A program made the translations under genes and the position numbers. From a virus (taxonomy: Duplodnaviria; Heunggongvirae; Uroviricota; Caudoviricetes): a stretch of 7,097 bases of DNA. The notes under the pieces are model-generated. The model saw nothing but the letters and a program-made list of their open reading frames with translations. It did no database searches and had not been told where the DNA came from. Positions within the stretch are counted from its first letter, which is position 1, and the number at the start of each line of letters is the position of its first letter. The DNA lies in the IMG/VR virus record IMGVR_UViG_2778261064_000012. One strand, written 5' to 3'. Shown piece by piece: positions 663 through 6,786 of the stretch.

Positions 663-1310
663 TCAGCGACCAATCACCACAACCTGACCACCGTCCCCTT
701 CGTCTGCCGTGCTGATCTCCTGAGAAACCACCCGCGAACCCACACGCATTTCACCGTACAGAACAGGCAAAACATTGCCCTGAGCAACCATGTTATCCAG
801 TGAGGAGAAATAGGTGTTCTGTTTGCCGTTATCTGTACTGGCTGCCGTGGACGTCCTGGCTTTCGGTGCCAGCATCTGCGCCACACCGCCCAGGATCATA
901 CTGGCCCCTGCCGCATACATGCCCGATACAGCCGCGGCACCCAGCCAGCCCACAGGGTTCCACCATGCCACCGCAATCAACGCCGCCCCCAGCACCACCT
1001 GAAATACACCGCCACTTTTAGCTCCCGCCAGACGCGGCACGATATGGATCACGGCACCATTTTCCAGCGGCTCATTAAGACGGGCAGATAATTCGGTTTC
1101 ACCTGCATCACGCCCGGCAATGCGCACCTGATACCAGCCCTCATTCAGTTTCTGGCGAAACGACGGAAGCTGCGTGGCCAGCGCCCGGATGGCTTCGGCC
1201 CCCGTTTTCACACGAAGGTCGATGCGGCGGCCAAATCGTTGTAAATCCCCGTAAAGGCAGATGCGTGCCATGCCCGGTGACGCCAGAGGGAGTGTGTGCG
1301 TCGCTGCCAT
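663..1310 (-). CDS. I: Tail assembly protein I (215 aa)
   Basis: ORF with ATG at 1310..1308 and TGA at 665..663. The translation MAATHTLPLASPGMARICLYGDLQRFGRRIDLRVKTGAEAIRALATQLP... and the C-terminus ...DNGKQNTYFSSLDNMVAQGNVLPVLYGEMRVGSRVVSQEISTADEGDGGQVVVIGR match lambda gpI as I recall it. It has the same 103-nt out-of-frame overlap with K as in lambda. Confidence 0.85.
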   Translation of the reverse strand: MAATHTLPLASPGMARICLYGDLQRFGRRIDLRVKTGAEAIRALATQLPSFRQKLNEGWYQVRIAGRDAGETELSARLNEPLENGAVIHIVPRLAGAKSGGVFQVVLGAALIAVAWWNPVGWLGAAAVSGMYAAGASMILGGVAQMLAPKARTSTAASTDNGKQNTYFSSLDNMVAQGNVLPVLYGEMRVGSRVVSQEISTADEGDGGQVVVIGR

Positions 1311-1951
1311 TTGTCGGTATACCTCTCTCGTTTGCTCAGTTGTTCAGGAATATGGTGCAACAGCTCGCCGTCGCCGCAGTAAATGGCGGCATGATTCGGC
1401 ACCGATGAACCAAAACAGCACAGCAGCACATCGCCCGGCTGCGCCGCTGACAACGGCACCTGATACAGCCCTGTGGCCTCCAGATTATCCAGATAGAGAT
1501 TCTGACCGTTACGCCACCAGTCATCCTCGCGATGAAAATCCGGCATCTCAATCCCCGCCAGATGGTAAGCGTCCCGGAACAGCGTGTAACAGTCCGTCAC
1601 CCCGTGCTCAAAGCGCCGCCCGGTGAGATGCGGCACACAGCGGAACTTATGAATCGCCCCCCGGCAGACCAGCCACCACGGCAAATCACTCTGCACCTGC
1701 AGTCGCCGGTCGGCCTCACTCAGCCAGGGCAGACCACCGGGGTGGCTGTGCACCAGCGCCACAATCTCACCCTGCATTTCTGCCCGCAGCCAGTCCTCCG
1801 GCGACATCCGGAAATAATCCTCCGGCTCACCGGAGATATTCACGCAGGGAAAATATCTTTCCCCTTCCGGCGTTCTCACCACGAAGCCGCACGACTCCGC
1901 TGGCGCACATCGCCGGGCGTGCGCCAGAATCGCTGATTCTGTCTGTGTCAT
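1208..1951 (-). CDS. K: Tail assembly protein K (247 aa) with an N-terminal JAMM/MPN metallopeptidase-like domain and a C-terminal NlpC/P60-like domain
   Basis: ATG at 1951..1949, five nt after the L stop (TAA 1959..1957). The translation MTQTESAILAHARRCAPAESCGFVV... contains an exact JAMM signature H-S-H-x7-S-x2-D (VHSHPGGLPWLSEAD) preceded by a Glu-containing segment (PEGE), and a Cys/His-containing C-terminal half (VTDCYTLF ... HAAIYCGDGELLHH) consistent with NlpC/P60. Order and sequence match lambda gpK. Confidence 0.85.
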   Translation of the reverse strand: MTQTESAILAHARRCAPAESCGFVVRTPEGERYFPCVNISGEPEDYFRMSPEDWLRAEMQGEIVALVHSHPGGLPWLSEADRRLQVQSDLPWWLVCRGAIHKFRCVPHLTGRRFEHGVTDCYTLFRDAYHLAGIEMPDFHREDDWWRNGQNLYLDNLEATGLYQVPLSAAQPGDVLLCCFGSSVPNHAAIYCGDGELLHHIPEQLSKRERYTDKWQRRTHSLWRHRAWHASAFTGIYNDLAAASTFV

Positions 1952-2664: not shown

Positions 2665-2994
2665 CTATGCCACGACCTGTTCAAAATCTGCCGTTATGGT
2701 TACCCACAGCGCCCCCACGCTTGCCGACCATTTACGACAAACCACCCTAATCGGTTTCCAGTCATAAGGTGGCGTCCACTGAAATGCGCGGACGCCACCG
2801 TGCCGTTCCAGAAAGGCTTTTAAAGATGGGTGTTCACATTTACGAACACGTATCGTCACGCTGTAAATCGACAACTGGTTATTCAGTCCCGCCGCACGAC
2901 GCTGTTCATAACCATCGCCCAGCTTCACTGTCACCACTTTCGGCTCTGATACCACATTCATATCCGGGCGCACTTTCCAGTGAAACGTCTCCAT
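2665..2994 (-). CDS. M: Minor tail protein M (109 aa)
   Basis: ATG at 2994..2992 overlaps the H stop (TAA 2996..2994) as TAATG. The translation METFHWKVRPDMNVVSEPKVVTVKLGDGYEQRRAAGLN...FLERHGGVRAFQWTPPYDWKPIRVVCRKWS...ADFEQVVA resembles lambda gpM (M..F.WKV.P...GDGY.QR...GLN ... EFEQVV) but is clearly more divergent than L/K/I/J. Confidence 0.85.
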   Translation of the reverse strand: METFHWKVRPDMNVVSEPKVVTVKLGDGYEQRRAAGLNNQLSIYSVTIRVRKCEHPSLKAFLERHGGVRAFQWTPPYDWKPIRVVCRKWSASVGALWVTITADFEQVVA

Positions 2995-5900
2995 TACCGA
3001 TATGCTCCACTTAACCGACCACCATCACGGGCCTGCTGTTGCATAAAGTCCGCTGCCGCTTTTTTCCCAAGGTCATAAACCACCTTCAGGGCAGCCGGAC
3101 CTATCTGCCCGTTCGTGCCATCGTTATTGATCTCGATGTTGTACTGCGGGGCAAACATCGCCATACCTGAACCACCAATATCCGCCACAACCCCCAGCTT
3201 ACCGTCAGCACCACGACGCAGTGGCAGAATGGCTTCAGGTCCAGCTTCCCCCATCACACCCGCGCCTTTTGCAAAAGCAAAAAACGTCGGACGGTTAACC
3301 ACCGTGCCACTGTAGCGACTCAAATCAGCCGACTGATAAACACCGCCATCAGCATTGGCTACAAAATCAAAAGGCAGCGCGGAAGCAATGCCTTTTACCG
3401 CTTTCATTAAAGCTATCTGAGCCATGATTCTGGACATATCTGACAGCACAGAAGAGGTGAAGGATTTGAAATTGAGTTTGCCTGTAGTACAGAATGTCGC
3501 CAGCCAGTCACTCATGCTACTGAACGCAGACGTGAACAACTGTTCCACTGTCCCGGCTGTGTTATCCGCTTTCTCAGTGACATTCTGGAGTGCACGCAGG
3601 ACTCCGTTTTTCCAGTCACCCTGAGCAATTTCAAGCTGTTGCCAATAACGGCGATTCTCATTCAGTTGTCGGTTCAGGCTCTCCGTCAGCGCCTGCTCGG
3701 CCTTTCTGTAGTCATCCGTGTTATATGTCCCTTTCTGCTCACTATCCCGCCTCAACTGCTCCAGCTGTTGCTGGTATTTCTGGCGAAGACTCAGTTGTAC
3801 CTGATATCGCTGCCTCTGCTGATCACCCATACCCACCGTGGCGATATCCAGGTCATGTTGCTGACGCTGAGCGCGCTCTTCTTCAGCCAGTTGACTGGTC
3901 AGCTGAATTGTTTTTTTCTTCAGCTCGTTGAGTGCCGTCTGTTTCTGAAGCTCCTGCTGTTTTACATCCAGCAGCGTCAGTGCCTGAATCAGTTCATCTT
4001 TACGGGCCAGCACACTCTTTTCATCTGCCGTCAGTTTTTTCCCGTCCAGGTCGCTGATGCGCTGCTGCAGAGCCAGAAGCTGTTTATGCGCTTCTGTCAT
4101 CTTTTCAGTGGCAATGCCTGCTGACTGTCTTGCAGCAGCAATCTGCCCTTCCACCTGTGCCTGTTGCTGACTGTACTGCAGCAATAACCGGGTGGCCTCA
4201 TCATTACGGGTTTCGCGTGTTTTTTTCTTACCGGATGCCAGGGCTTTCTCGTAACGTTCATTTTCACGTTGTATCGCCGCATCCCTGACAGCCTGGTCGG
4301 CGTACTGCATGGCATTAATACGCGCAATTTCACGCTGATGTCGTGCTGCTTCCGTTTCATTCATCCGGTTCAGTGCAGCATTTTCAGCATTACGTCGTTT
4401 CTGTTGCTCCTGATAATTCCGCTCTGCCTGCTCTTTTGCATCCTGCAAATCCTTCTGGCGTTTTTTCTCCTGAAGATCGTTAAGACGCTGCTGATCGTAT
4501 TCAACCTGAGAAGATGATGCCGTCCAGGGGAGTCTTTTCGCCCGCGACACTTTCTCCTGTAAAGTGACAATCTGTTCATCCAGCGAGTCTTCACGACCAA
4601 TATTCATGGCCGCATCCCAGAAACGACTCCATAAATCAGACAGATACTTCAGCGTACTACCAAGCGCATTGAGGTTATTATCAATATCCGCAGTACGCCG
4701 ACCGGTTTCCTCTGCCAGTGCAGACATGGCTATCCGTGCAGCATCACTGGACCGTCCCTGCTCCCCAAGGACGCGTATCTGCTCAAGCTGAGTGGCAGTA
4801 AGAAAATGCAGCTCATTGTCCAGAGCCTTCGCGGCATTTACAGGATCATCCTTCAGCCGCTTAAACTGATTTATGGTATCGCTGACCGACTGGCCAACCG
4901 ATCGCTCCATCTGTGCGGCAGCTCTCGCCACCATACCGATATCGTTTCCACGAAATGCACCACTACCCACCACCTGAGCCAGCGCACCGGCTGCAGCATG
5001 TTGCGTGATACCATTCCCGGAAATAGCACGACTGAGCGTCCACAGCTGCCCGGCAGTGACTCCGGCATAATGCCCCGTCAGCGACAGCTGGCGGTTAAAT
5101 TCTTCCCCCTCCTTCTGACCGTCATACCAGGCTTTACCCAGACCATAGACAGCCGCGGCAATACCGCTAATAACCCCGCCAAGCATCATGCCTTTCGGTG
5201 ACATCAGTGTGTCTATCCACCCGGCACGGTTAGCCAGCGTTATCCCGGATCCCCTCAGCGCACCTAAATTGCCGCGGGCCAGTTCACCTATCAGAACGCC
5301 TATCTCCTGGCGGGCCGCTGCACTTTTCAGCCCCAGCGAATGCGTGGCTTTTCCTGCCTGCTCCATTTTGCGGATATACACTTCTGCAGCACTGCTTACC
5401 CCCAGCTGGGCAGCCTTAGCACGAAGCAACTCAGAAGAAGAAAGATTCTGGCGGGTTGCCTGCTCTTTAAGCTGACGGATAAACGCCACTTTCTGTCGGG
5501 TAGCCTCTTCCTCAGCCTGTGTAAGAACACGGGTTTTCGCCGTAACCTCAGAAATCAGCGCCAGATAATCCTGCTGACCAATCCCGCCACTGTTTCTGGC
5601 CTGTCGGATCTGCTGCTGAATACGCTGTAATTCCTGCAGACCCGCACTGGCCTGTTTCACACTGTCAATCTGACGATAAAACGCAGCAGCCGCTTTATCC
5701 TGAGCCTCCGCCAGAGCCATGGCCTGCGCCTGTTCCTCGCGCATTTTCTGGCTCAGCGCCTCCATGCGCTGGCGGGTTTTCTCCACCTCGCGGGCCATGC
5801 GTTCATGAGCCTGTGCGTTCTTCTCCACCGTCTGCGCATGGACGGATGCGGCTGTTGCAGCCGAAGACGCCGCCTGCGTTGTCTGCCGGGCGGCCTGAGT

Positions 5901-6050
5901 CTGACGCTCCATAAAACGCTGCATACGGGCAGAAGACCGTTCTGCATCGCTGGCTGCACCATTCAGAAGGTTTTTGATACGGGGGATTTCATTTTTAAAC
6001 TCTGCCGCATCAATCCCCAAATCAATGACCAGGTTGGCTATCTGGTCCAT
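2994..6050 (-). CDS. H: Tail length tape measure protein (1018 aa from the ATG at 6050)
   Basis: Single long minus-strand ORF. I place the start at ATG 6050..6048 (MDQIANLVIDLGIDAAEF..., aligning with the lambda gpH N-terminus MAEPVGDLVVDLSLDAARF), with GGAGG 8 nt upstream. The track's 1028-aa version begins at a TTG at 6080 inside T. It has long Ala/Gln/Glu/Arg-rich coiled-coil-like stretches, a hydrophobic Gly/Ala-rich segment (GMMLGGVISGIAAAVYGLGKAWY), and a lambda-type C-terminus (NNDGTNGQIGPAALKVVYDLGKK...RDGG). Confidence 0.9.
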   Translation of the reverse strand: MDQIANLVIDLGIDAAEFKNEIPRIKNLLNGAASDAERSSARMQRFMERQTQAARQTTQAASSAATAASVHAQTVEKNAQAHERMAREVEKTRQRMEALSQKMREEQAQAMALAEAQDKAAAAFYRQIDSVKQASAGLQELQRIQQQIRQARNSGGIGQQDYLALISEVTAKTRVLTQAEEEATRQKVAFIRQLKEQATRQNLSSSELLRAKAAQLGVSSAAEVYIRKMEQAGKATHSLGLKSAAARQEIGVLIGELARGNLGALRGSGITLANRAGWIDTLMSPKGMMLGGVISGIAAAVYGLGKAWYDGQKEGEEFNRQLSLTGHYAGVTAGQLWTLSRAISGNGITQHAAAGALAQVVGSGAFRGNDIGMVARAAAQMERSVGQSVSDTINQFKRLKDDPVNAAKALDNELHFLTATQLEQIRVLGEQGRSSDAARIAMSALAEETGRRTADIDNNLNALGSTLKYLSDLWSRFWDAAMNIGREDSLDEQIVTLQEKVSRAKRLPWTASSSQVEYDQQRLNDLQEKKRQKDLQDAKEQAERNYQEQQKRRNAENAALNRMNETEAARHQREIARINAMQYADQAVRDAAIQRENERYEKALASGKKKTRETRNDEATRLLLQYSQQQAQVEGQIAAARQSAGIATEKMTEAHKQLLALQQRISDLDGKKLTADEKSVLARKDELIQALTLLDVKQQELQKQTALNELKKKTIQLTSQLAEEERAQRQQHDLDIATVGMGDQQRQRYQVQLSLRQKYQQQLEQLRRDSEQKGTYNTDDYRKAEQALTESLNRQLNENRRYWQQLEIAQGDWKNGVLRALQNVTEKADNTAGTVEQLFTSAFSSMSDWLATFCTTGKLNFKSFTSSVLSDMSRIMAQIALMKAVKGIASALPFDFVANADGGVYQSADLSRYSGTVVNRPTFFAFAKGAGVMGEAGPEAILPLRRGADGKLGVVADIGGSGMAMFAPQYNIEINNDGTNGQIGPAALKVVYDLGKKAAADFMQQQARDGGRLSGAYR

Positions 6051-6372
6051 AACGCACACCTCCGGAAATACCTTCCCCAAGATGCATCAGTTCTTCGTCC
6101 GTTCGCTCCGGTATCCCGTTCTCTTCCGGTAAAAGGCTGAAATCAGCCACCGCAGCATCACTGCTGCCGGACACCATTCTCACGATCAATGCCTTCAGCG
6201 AGGCAAACTGCGCATCCATCCACACATCACTGAAGCTCTGCATCCGGAAATAATCGCCCCACTCACCAAGCTCAGTGGCCGACATTTCCGACAGCATCCG
6301 CCGCCAGTCTGCCCGCCGGAACTCCCGGGCAAGCCGCATGACAAACTGCATTTCCCGCGTCAGGACTTTTCC
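6022..6372 (-). CDS. T: Tail assembly chaperone T-frame segment, expected to be made only as a G-T fusion by -1 programmed ribosomal frameshift
   Basis: An ORF in the -1 frame relative to G, open from the T-frame stop at 6387..6385 through to TGA 6024..6022. It overlaps the last 8 codons of G and the first 29 nt of H. Position between G and H matches lambda T. The track lists only the part from an internal ATG (6351). The start coordinate is given at the putative slip site. Confidence 0.7.
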   Translation of the reverse strand, partial: GKVLTREMQFVMRLAREFRRADWRRMLSEMSATELGEWGDYFRMQSFSDVWMDAQFASLKALIVRMVSGSSDAAVADFSLLPEENGIPERTDEELMHLGEGISGGVRYGPDSQPGH

Positions 6373-6746
6373 GGCGTCAGCGCCTCATGCTCATCATCCC
6401 CGGCATTATCAATGGCCCCCATACCGCTCAGCGACAGAACCATCTCCGCCCCCGCACCCAGGGCATCATACGACCATGTTGTAATAACGGATGCGCAAAG
6501 CGTCTCTACATCCTTAGACTGATCCGCATTCCACAGTGAGCGGGAAACCAGCCAGGCATTGATATCCATCCCCATCCGCAGAAAAGCAATCTGTCGTTCA
6601 GCCTCCGGCAGTTCTCCCTCACCGGCATCAAACTTTGCCGTTCGCTGCTGAACAAACGCCAGATATTCAATTCTCTGCAGCCCGGACAGCTCACTGAGCA
6701 CCACGGACTGTTTTTCATAATTAAACGTGCCCTGTTTCAGAAACAT
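6360..6746 (-). CDS. G: Tail assembly chaperone G (128 aa from the ATG at 6746; a tandem ATG at 6749 is also possible)
   Basis: ORF ending at TGA 6362..6360. Two adjacent ATGs at 6749 and 6746 follow GGTGGAG; the second gives better SD spacing (6 nt) and the product MFLKQGTFNYEKQSVVLSELSGLQRIEYLAFVQ..., like the lambda gpG start MFLK. The track's longer version starts at a TTG (6788) that lies inside the upstream hairpin. Confidence 0.8.
   Translation of the reverse strand: MFLKQGTFNYEKQSVVLSELSGLQRIEYLAFVQQRTAKFDAGEGELPEAERQIAFLRMGMDINAWLVSRSLWNADQSKDVETLCASVITTWSYDALGAGAEMVLSLSGMGAIDNAGDDEHEALTPEKS
6366..6372 (-). other. Putative -1 programmed ribosomal frameshift (slippery) site for G-T fusion
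   Basis: The minus strand reads CTG ACG CCG GAA AAG TCC TGA in the G frame. The heptamer G-GAA-AAG (GGAAAAG) lies inside the only 22-nt window where the G and T frames are both open. Lambda uses G-GGA-AAG at the equivalent position. Confidence 0.6.
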
Positions 6747-6762
6747 CATGTTCTCCACCTGC

Positions 6763-6786
6763 AAAAAAGCCCCGGATAACCGGGGC
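6763..6786 (-). terminator. Rho-independent terminator-like hairpin between V and G
   Basis: The minus strand reads GCCCCGG-TTAT-CCGGGGC (perfect 7-bp GC-rich stem, 4-nt loop; plus 6769..6786) immediately followed by TTTTTT (plus A-run 6763..6768). It lies in the 60-nt V-G intergenic gap, and the G ribosome-binding site follows directly. Confidence 0.45.

What the first reader, a model, noticed from the sequence alone, without database searches (positions are those of the whole stretch)
6363..6387. G-T frameshift window with a variant slippery heptamer (GGAAAAG rather than lambda GGGAAAG)
The G frame and the -1 T frame are both open only between the T-frame stop (6387..6385) and the G stop (6362..6360). 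That 22-nt window contains CCG-GAA-AAG. The A-site shift AAG to AAA is canonical, but the P-site codon is GAA (Glu) rather than lambda's GGA (Gly), so re-pairing to GGA keeps only two of three positions. This is either a lower-efficiency variant of the conserved tail chaperone frameshift or a single-tRNA slip on A-AAG, and it would set the G:GT ratio.
Basis: partly seen in the sequence, partly recalled or inferred. Interest (0 to 1): 0.45.

Follow-up and report, generated by a model that had tools for sequence, protein, structure and literature searches.

The report
Known G-T tail chaperone frameshift site
This is the ordinary programmed -1 ribosomal frameshift site that joins the phage tail assembly chaperone genes G and T, and its heptamer GGAAAAG is already annotated as the slippery sequence in phages N15 and phi80, so it is a known variant and not a new one.

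Summary
On the minus strand, gene G (PF06894) ends at TGA 6362..6360. The -1 frame encoding T (PF06223) is closed upstream by TGA 6387..6385. The 22-nt overlap contains G GAA AAG (6372..6366) in the X XXY YYZ register.

The window is an E. coli lambdoid prophage of the mEp460/cdtI type. This G-T module occurs in 1846 of 5426 complete E. coli genomes.

I compared 22 divergent lineages. The heptamer sits at the position that aligns with lambda's GGGAAAG. Thirteen lineages have GGAAAAG. Base 1, a synonymous site, always equals base 2. The ATG at 6351 that databases use as the T start is not conserved. No downstream RNA structure is conserved.

GenBank records of N15 and phi80 label exactly GGAAAAG as the "slippery sequence for -1 translational frameshift". 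HK97 carries the same heptamer, and the Gifsy-1 record notes the frameshift. Peng et al. 2019 found G GAA AAG less slippery than G GGA AAG in vitro.

Best reading: two-tRNA -1 slippage with near-cognate re-pairing of tRNA-Glu (a G·U pair at the middle position). It yields a GT fusion of about 242 aa at low frequency.

A GAGG lies 10 nt upstream, the spacing seen in dnaX. It may help, but the comparative support is weak.

Novelty: already known. Interest: low.

The parts
6360..6749 (-). Gene G, tail assembly chaperone. It is 129 aa from ATG 6749, or 128 aa from the second ATG at 6746. Stop is TGA 6362..6360.
   Evidence: ORF list. Pfam PF06894 Phage_TAC_2, E=1.8e-39. PGAP names it 'phage tail assembly chaperone G' in a 100% identical prophage.
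6366..6372 (-). Slippery heptamer G GAA AAG. The 0-frame codons are GAA (6371..6369) and AAG (6368..6366). The -1 codons are GGA (6372..6370) and AAA (6369..6367).
   Evidence: Sequence. Invariant and in the same register in 13 divergent lineages. Annotated as the slippery sequence in N15 and phi80.
6363..6384 (-). The 22-nt window in which both the G frame and the -1 (T) frame are open.
6385..6387 (-). TGA that closes the T frame upstream. It overlaps the SD-like tGAGG.
6022..6366 (-). T-frame extension read after the shift: 114 codons from GTC 6366..6364, then the stop at 6024..6022. The predicted GT fusion is about 242 aa with junction ...LTPEK/VLTREMQF...
   Evidence: Translation. Pfam PF06223 Phage_tail_T, E=5.1e-15. 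T-frame conservation begins at the heptamer (G-K-V) in all relatives, including lambda.
6383..6386 (-). SD-like GAGG, 10 nt before heptamer base 1. This is the dnaX spacing. It is a candidate weak stimulator and is unproven.
   Evidence: It meets the published criterion of 6-17 nt before base 2 (PMC4066793). Comparative support is mixed.
6349..6351 (-). ATG that PGAP and most phage records use as the start of a free-standing 109-aa T. It is probably not the real start.
   Evidence: Annotation. The Met is not conserved in relatives. The only purine-rich stretch ends 2 nt before the ATG.
2994..6050 (-). Gene H, tape measure protein. It lies immediately downstream and overlaps the T end by 29 nt. 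It gives the context that defines the G-T-H arrangement.
   Evidence: Pfam TMP_2, Tape_meas_lam_C and TMP_4. Annotation.

Best explanation
This is the programmed -1 ribosomal frameshift site of the lambda-type tail assembly chaperone pair G/GT.

Most ribosomes translate G to its stop at 6362..6360. A small fraction take a different path:
1. tRNA-Glu sits on GAA in the P site and tRNA-Lys on AAG in the A site.
2. Both slip back one base, onto GGA and AAA.
3. The ribosome then reads GTC CTG ACG... in the T frame as far as 6024..6022.
4. The product is a GT fusion (...TPEK-VLTREMQ...).

The G part of GT should bind the tape measure protein H, and the T part should recruit the major tail protein V, as in lambda.

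Re-pairing is exact for tRNA-Lys (AAG to AAA). It is near-cognate for tRNA-Glu: G:C at the first position, G·U at the middle position and A:U at the wobble position. The site is therefore intrinsically weaker than lambda's G GGA AAG.

Shown here: gene identities, frames, and the position and conservation of the heptamer.
Inferred: the two-tRNA mechanism, from conservation of base 1.
Not measured: the efficiency and the existence of the fusion protein in this phage.

The confidence of 0.88 is for the claim that this is the G/GT -1 frameshift site. For the two-tRNA detail specifically I would give about 0.65.
For: Gene identity and order:
- The order is V-G-T-H-M-L-K-I, with G = PF06894 and T = PF06223.
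- The window is 100% identical to an E. coli prophage and about 99% identical to mEp460/cdtI-type phages.

Position and conservation of the heptamer:
- It lies inside the only G/T overlap. That overlap shrinks to 16 nt in one Salmonella lineage and still contains the heptamer.
- It has the same register in all lineages.
- It aligns with lambda's GGGAAAG, and T-frame similarity starts exactly there.
- Synonymous choices are frozen: GAA 10/10, AAG 14/14, and a preceding codon ending in G 14/14. Other conserved four-fold sites show 40-93% for the commonest base.
- Base 1 equals base 2 in 22/22 lineages: G before GAA, GGA or GCA, and A before AAA.

No conserved independent start for T:
- ATG 6351 is absent in Salmonella, Gifsy-1, L011, L013, N15, phi80 and lambda.

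Public records and literature:
- N15 and phi80 records label GGAAAAG as the 'slippery sequence for -1 translational frameshift'.
- The HK97 joined CDS, 'translated due to a -1 frameshift', carries CGG GAA AAG.
- The Gifsy-1 record says T is made 'by translational frameshifting'.
- The role of gpG/gpGT and their roughly 30:1 ratio in lambda are described in PMC5009743.
Against: - No protein-level or reporter evidence exists for this particular phage clade in anything I could search.
- In a reconstituted E. coli system, AUG GAA AAG gave mainly 0-frame product (PMC6924986). The heptamer alone is therefore poorly slippery, and how enough GT is made is unexplained.
- No conserved downstream structure was found. 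The consensus fold is -1.4 kcal/mol with no covariation, and the single-sequence z-score is -1.66.
- Conservation of base 1 could in part reflect shared ancestry and the commonness of CCG, GCG and CTG codons.
- Public annotation (PGAP and most phage records) treats T as a separate gene.
Confidence: 0.88

Rival explanations
1. Single-tRNA slip. Only tRNA-Lys re-pairs, from AAG to AAA on the tetramer A AAG. The P-site tRNA-Glu contributes nothing, as at the CGA AAG sites of B. subtilis cdd and IS1222.
For: A_AAG is the most shift-prone tetramer in E. coli (PMC4066793). Natural sites A_CGA_AAG and G_CGA_AAG work without good P-site re-pairing (PMC5009743). The Ewingella-like relatives use GGCAAAA, where P-site re-pairing is poor. 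[quoted passage not shown]
Against: Base 1 of the heptamer is irrelevant for a tetramer slip and is synonymous in G, yet it equals base 2 in 22/22 lineages across Pro, Ala, Leu, Arg and Ser codons. Tetramers without stimulators are barely above background, 0.147% against 0.112%, and no conserved stimulator was found here.
Confidence: 0.2
2. T is made on its own from ATG 6351, as annotated by PGAP and most phage records. This could happen by re-initiation of ribosomes that terminate at the G stop 8 nt upstream. In that case no frameshift is needed.
For: An ATG lies 8 nt after the G stop and opens a 109-aa ORF covering the whole Pfam T domain. Databases annotate it that way.
Against: The ATG is not conserved in the Salmonella, Gifsy-1, L190, L011, L013, N15, phi80 or lambda lineages, whereas the -1 frame is always open back to the heptamer. 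There is no properly spaced Shine-Dalgarno sequence. From established knowledge of lambda, a T protein without the G domain cannot tether V to the G-coated tape measure protein (PMC5009743).
Confidence: 0.06
3. The weak heptamer is boosted by the internal Shine-Dalgarno-like GAGG 10 nt upstream (6386..6383) pairing with 16S rRNA, as in dnaX. This clade would then be an SD-assisted version of the G-T frameshift.
For: GAGG-N10-GGAAAAG reproduces the dnaX spacing and meets the published criterion. Among 18 lineages with non-canonical heptamers, 6 have an SD-like motif at exactly this spacing, against 2.5 expected under synonymous-codon shuffling (P about 0.005). With a gap of 10-13 nt the count is 9 against 4.7 expected (P about 0.009). 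None of the 3 GGGAAAG lineages has one in range.
Against: Using the published 6-17 nt criterion, the enrichment is not significant: 10 observed against 7.9 expected, P = 0.19. The tail of G is rich in Glu, Gly and Ala, which produces GAGG and GGAG by itself. N15, phi80, HK97, Kp4865-4, L112, L109 and L326 use GGAAAAG without any SD-like motif. The exact-spacing test was partly chosen after seeing the data, and the lineages are not fully independent.
Confidence: 0.25

Closest known systems
Phage lambda G/GT programmed -1 frameshift (G GGA AAG). Levin, Hendrix and Casjens 1993 and Xu, Hendrix and Duda 2004, 2013, 2014, as summarised in PMC5009743.
   Same: The gene order V-G-T-H is the same, and so are the Pfam families for G and T. 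The heptamer lies at the aligned position near the 3' end of G. The -1 T frame has no conserved start. No conserved downstream structure is present.
   Different: Base 3 of the heptamer is A, not G. The P-site codon is therefore GAA (Glu), and re-pairing to GGA needs a middle-position G·U. G is only 36% identical to lambda G. The 0-frame stop follows one codon after the site, against five in lambda. T is shorter: 114 codons after the site, against 145 codons from the heptamer's first base in lambda (coordinates; the whole -1 ORF is 159 aa).
G-T frameshift sites of phages N15, phi80 and HK97 (GenBank NC_001901, FN582354, NC_002167)
   Same: The heptamer GGAAAAG is identical and in the same register. 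It is explicitly annotated as the slippery sequence for the -1 frameshift in N15 and phi80, and it lies inside a joined frameshift CDS in HK97.
   Different: The G proteins are only distantly related to the window's G, about 33-35% identity for phi80-type. These phages have Ala-Glu-Lys or Arg-Glu-Lys rather than Pro-Glu-Lys. They have 5 or 6 sense codons between the site and the G stop, and no SD-like motif upstream.
Salmonella prophage Gifsy-1 gpG/gpT (NC_010392)
   Same: It belongs to the same P-E-K-S clade (56% identity to the window's G) and has the same ACG CCG GAA AAG TCC TGA ending. Its record states that T is made by translational frameshifting.
   Different: It lacks the ATG that corresponds to 6351. 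Its upstream SD-like motif is AGGA at a different spacing.
E. coli dnaX -1 frameshift (A AAA AAG with an upstream SD-like sequence and a downstream stem-loop)
   Same: tRNA-Lys slips from AAG to AAA in the A site. An SD-like element lies 10 nt upstream in the window.
   Different: There is no conserved downstream stem-loop. The P-site tRNA is Glu with near-cognate re-pairing. The expected efficiency is far lower.

Membership tests
Lambda-type tail assembly chaperone G/GT -1 frameshift | Two overlapping ORFs lie between the major tail protein gene and the tape measure gene. | tested here: met
   The order is V (Big_2 C-terminus), G, T, H (TMP_2, Tape_meas_lam_C).
Lambda-type tail assembly chaperone G/GT -1 frameshift | The upstream ORF is homologous to gpG and the downstream -1 ORF is homologous to gpT. 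| tested here: met
   PF06894 E=1.8e-39 and PF06223 E=5.1e-15. Alignments with lambda G and T.
Lambda-type tail assembly chaperone G/GT -1 frameshift | A slippery heptamer in the X XXY YYZ register lies inside the overlap, at the conserved position. | tested here: met
   G GAA AAG at 6372..6366, in the same register as in all relatives, and aligned to lambda G GGA AAG. XXX is GGA rather than a homotriplet, but the identical heptamer is the annotated slip site of N15 and phi80.
Lambda-type tail assembly chaperone G/GT -1 frameshift | The downstream ORF lacks a conserved translation start of its own. | tested here: met
   ATG 6351 is present only in the E. coli sub-clade. The T frame is open back to the heptamer in all lineages.
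Lambda-type tail assembly chaperone G/GT -1 frameshift | A GT fusion protein is produced at a few percent of G and is required for tail assembly. | not testable with these tools
   This needs a reporter assay, a western blot or mass spectrometry.
dnaX-type stimulated -1 frameshift | A Shine-Dalgarno-like element lies about 10 nt 5' of the heptamer. | tested here: inconclusive
   It is present in the window (GAGG 6386..6383). At the exact spacing the count is 6/18 against 2.5 expected, P about 0.005. With the published 6-17 nt criterion it is 10/18 against 7.9 expected, P = 0.19. It is absent in N15, phi80 and HK97.
dnaX-type stimulated -1 frameshift | A stable stem-loop or pseudoknot lies 5-9 nt 3' of the heptamer. 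| tested here: not met
   The RNAalifold consensus is -1.42 kcal/mol with no compensatory pairs. The single-sequence z-score is -1.66.
Single-tRNA A_AAG tetramer or hexamer slip (cdd, IS1222 type) | Frameshifting depends only on Z ZZN. The base 5' of the P-site codon is free to vary. | tested here: not met
   Base 1 equals base 2 in 22/22 lineages, although it is a synonymous site in G and is not decoded in T. This is comparative inference, not a functional test.

The most novel reading that the evidence does not exclude
In the mEp460/Gifsy (Pro-Glu-Lys-Ser) clade, the intrinsically weak G GAA AAG heptamer is tuned by an internal Shine-Dalgarno-like GAGG at the dnaX spacing of 10 nt. A near-cognate P-site re-pairing plus an rRNA-mRNA contact would then set the G:GT ratio. 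This would differ from lambda, which has the stronger heptamer and no such element.
Probability: 0.2. Interest if true: 0.3.

Novelty: already known. Interest (0 to 1): 0.12.

Why it matters
There is little new biology here. The G-T frameshift is a textbook case, and GGAAAAG is already recorded as its slippery sequence in N15, phi80 and HK97.

The practical point concerns annotation. PGAP and most phage records list T of this clade as a free-standing 109-aa protein starting at a non-conserved ATG. This G-T module is present in about a third of complete E. coli genomes (1846 of 5426), so the GT fusion protein is missing from a very large number of proteomes.

The comparative table of natural heptamers at one homologous site may also be useful. 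It contains GGGAAAG, GGAAAAG, AAAAAAG, GGAAAAA+stop and GGCAAAA+stop. It is a small natural experiment on how much P-site mismatch a low-level frameshift tolerates.

Tried and rejected
- **Downstream stimulatory RNA structure.** The single-sequence fold of 6372..6270 was not significant (z = -1.66). The alignment fold of 17 lineages had no consensus and no covariation. Rejected.
- **Natural G-T fusion proteins as evidence of the shift site.** Two such proteins turned up in the protein database (P0026, P0044). They are in-frame deletions or assembly artefacts, not heptamer indels. Uninformative.
- **SD-like enrichment.** Measured against the raw background in G genes it looked strong (12/19 against 18%). 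It largely disappeared once the amino-acid sequence was held fixed. I kept it only as a weak hypothesis.
- **Extra viral-contig scans for diversity.** The lambda G, L013 G and L014 G queries returned mostly identical or no sequences.
- **Literature searches for GGAAAAG as a phage slippery site.** I found no phage paper. Licznar et al. 2003 (the NNA_AAG series) is not held. Xu et al. 2004 I cite from memory and did not look up. The key evidence came from GenBank feature annotations.
- **Transcriptional slippage.** I set this aside from general knowledge, because a run of four A is too short. No test was run.

Full report
**What the window is**

All genes lie on the minus strand. In order they are:
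- the C-terminal Ig-like domain of the major tail protein V;
- G (PF06894, E=1.8e-39);
- a -1 ORF matching T (PF06223, E=5.1e-15);
- the tape measure protein H;
- M, L, K and I.

The DNA is 100% identical to a prophage of E. coli strain Es_ST80. It is 98-99.9% identical to phages mEp460, cdtI, Tritos, Ayreon and relatives.

The G-T segment is found at 95% identity or more in 1846 of 5426 complete E. coli genomes. The lambda-type G-T is found in 3704 of them.

**Checking the observation**

On the minus strand the G frame ends ...GAG GCG CTG ACG CCG GAA AAG TCC TGA, with the stop at 6362..6360. The -1 frame has TGA at 6387..6385 and is then open to 6024..6022. The two frames overlap only in 6384..6363.

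The heptamer G GAA AAG is at 6372..6366, in the X XXY YYZ register.

The 7-mer alone is not improbable. There are 2 copies in the window against 1.04 expected. The other copy, at 5354..5348 in H, is in the register GGA AAA G.

**Comparative evidence**

I collected G-T junctions from several sources:
- bacterial genomes;
- viral contigs;
- metagenomes;
- GenBank phages.

I reduced these to 22 lineages.

*Heptamers at the homologous site.* In all lineages a heptamer sits in the same register inside the G/T overlap. T-frame protein similarity begins exactly there, at G-K-V/A.

| Heptamer | Lineages | Where |
|---|---|---|
| GGAAAAG | 13 | window/mEp460, other E. coli, Salmonella, Gifsy-1, L190, L011, L013, L109, L326, phi80, N15, Klebsiella Kp4865-4, HK97 |
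| GGGAAAG | 3 | lambda, Stx2a-type, Serratia-type |
| AAAAAAG | 1 | Stx2_95 / Stx1 |
| GGCAAAA | 4 | Ewingella-like clade |
| GGAAAAA | 1 | Ewingella-like clade |

In the last two groups the heptamer is followed directly by TAG.

*Size of the overlap.* In one Salmonella lineage the overlap is only 16 nt (TTCGCCGGAAAAGTCC). That leaves no other candidate site.

*Synonymous sites.* Among 15 representatives below 93% nucleotide identity:
- Glu is GAA 10/10;
- Lys is AAG 14/14;
- the preceding codon ends in G 14/14.

Other conserved four-fold sites in G show 40-93% for their commonest base. The G genes overall use AAA over AAG 61:27.

*Base 1.* Heptamer base 1 equals base 2 in 22/22 lineages. It is G before GAA, GGA or GCA, and A before AAA. 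Base 1 is a synonymous position in G. It is not decoded as part of T if the shift happens on the heptamer. Its conservation therefore points to selection on re-pairing of the P-site tRNA, that is, to two-tRNA slippage. This is an inference from comparison and is not fully free of phylogenetic non-independence.

**Independent initiation of T**

PGAP and most phage records annotate T as a 109-aa ORF starting at ATG 6351. That Met is missing in Salmonella, Gifsy-1, L190, L011, L013, N15, phi80 and lambda. The only purine-rich stretch upstream ends 2 nt before the ATG. Some re-initiation after the G stop cannot be excluded, but it is not the conserved route.

**Stimulators**

*Downstream structure.* None is conserved. 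The RNAalifold consensus is -1.42 kcal/mol with no compensatory pairs. The window's own fold is not significant (z = -1.66).

*Upstream SD-like element.* GAGG (6386..6383) lies 10 nt before the heptamer, which is the dnaX spacing. It satisfies the criterion used by Sharma et al. (SD-like motif 6-17 nt before base 2; PMC4066793). I tested enrichment with the amino-acid sequence held fixed and synonymous codons shuffled, across 18 non-canonical lineages:
- at the exact spacing, 6 observed against 2.5 expected (P about 0.005);
- with the published 6-17 nt range, 10 observed against 7.9 expected (P = 0.19).

N15, phi80 and HK97 have no such motif. I therefore treat the SD-like element as a possible local enhancer and nothing more.

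**What is already known**

- The N15 record marks 10027..10033 as the "slippery sequence for -1 translational frameshift". The phi80 record FN582354 marks 10194..10200 the same way. Both are GGAAAAG.
- HK97 has a joined CDS "translated due to a -1 frameshift". It carries CGG GAA AAG in the same register.
- The Gifsy-1 record, from the same Pro-Glu-Lys-Ser clade as the window, says T is made "by translational frameshifting".
- Peng et al. 2019 (PMC6924986) compared G GGA AAG and G GAA AAG in a reconstituted E. coli system. They call the latter unfavourable because of a second-position mismatch for tRNA-Glu, and they report mainly 0-frame product.
- Sharma et al. 2014 found A_AAG to be the best tetramer, but barely above background without a stimulator.
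- Atkins et al. 2016 list natural CGA_AAG sites and summarise the gpG:gpGT ratio of about 30:1 and its role in tail assembly.
- From memory, not verified here: Xu et al. 2004 confirmed the frameshift experimentally in five further phages.

**Mechanism proposed**

1. tRNA-Glu on GAA and tRNA-Lys on AAG slip one base back, onto GGA and AAA.
2. Lys re-pairs perfectly. Glu re-pairs with G:C, G·U and A:U.
3. The next codon read is GTC (6366..6364).
4. The product is a GT fusion of about 242 aa with junction TPEK/VLTREMQ.

The efficiency is probably lower than lambda's. The measured value is unknown.

**Verdict**

The feature is an ordinary, already documented variant of a well-known recoding site. 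The main practical consequence is that the GT fusion is systematically missing from public annotation of this very common prophage module.

Noticed in passing
window 6349..6351 (-); L191 7410..7739: PGAP and most phage records annotate T of this clade as a free-standing 109-aa ORF starting at a non-conserved ATG, with no joined GT product. The module is in 1846 of 5426 complete E. coli genomes, so the GT fusion is missing from many proteomes.
   Followed up: partly
L012 1902..1911; L274, L277 and L278 1201..1210; L276 1201..1210: In an Ewingella-like clade the homologous site is GGCAAAA or GGAAAAA, and the slip codon AAA is the last sense codon of G, followed directly by TAG (5/5). All heptamers ending in AAAG are followed by a sense codon (17/17). 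This suggests a stop-codon-assisted slip on A AAA with poor P-site re-pairing.
   Followed up: partly
L360 and L366 (Stx2_95 and Stx1_131719 phages), G 3' end: These Stx phages carry the dnaX-type heptamer A AAA AAG (ACA TCA AAA AAG) at the position homologous to lambda's GGGAAAG.
   Followed up: no
window 6769..6786 (-): A terminator-like hairpin, GCCCCGG-TTAT-CCGGGGC followed by TTTTTT, lies between the V stop and the G start. It is also annotated as a rho-independent terminator in mEp460 and Ayreon. It probably lowers expression of G, T and H relative to V.
   Followed up: partly
window 5348..5354 (-): A second GGAAAAG lies inside the tape measure gene H, but in the register GGA AAA G, which is not a slip register. 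The count is consistent with chance.
   Followed up: yes
window 1208..1310 (-): The ORFs for K (JAB plus NlpC/P60 domains, 1208..1951) and I (663..1310) overlap by about 100 nt as listed. PGAP annotates the same overlap. The true start of I was not examined.
   Followed up: no
proteins P0026 and P0044: Two database proteins carry both the G and T Pfam domains in one chain. They result from internal deletions joining G to the T frame, not from an indel at the heptamer.
   Followed up: yes
L001 2374..2391 (mEp460 record): The mEp460 record annotates a second 'rho-independent terminator' inside gene T. It was not examined here.
   Followed up: no
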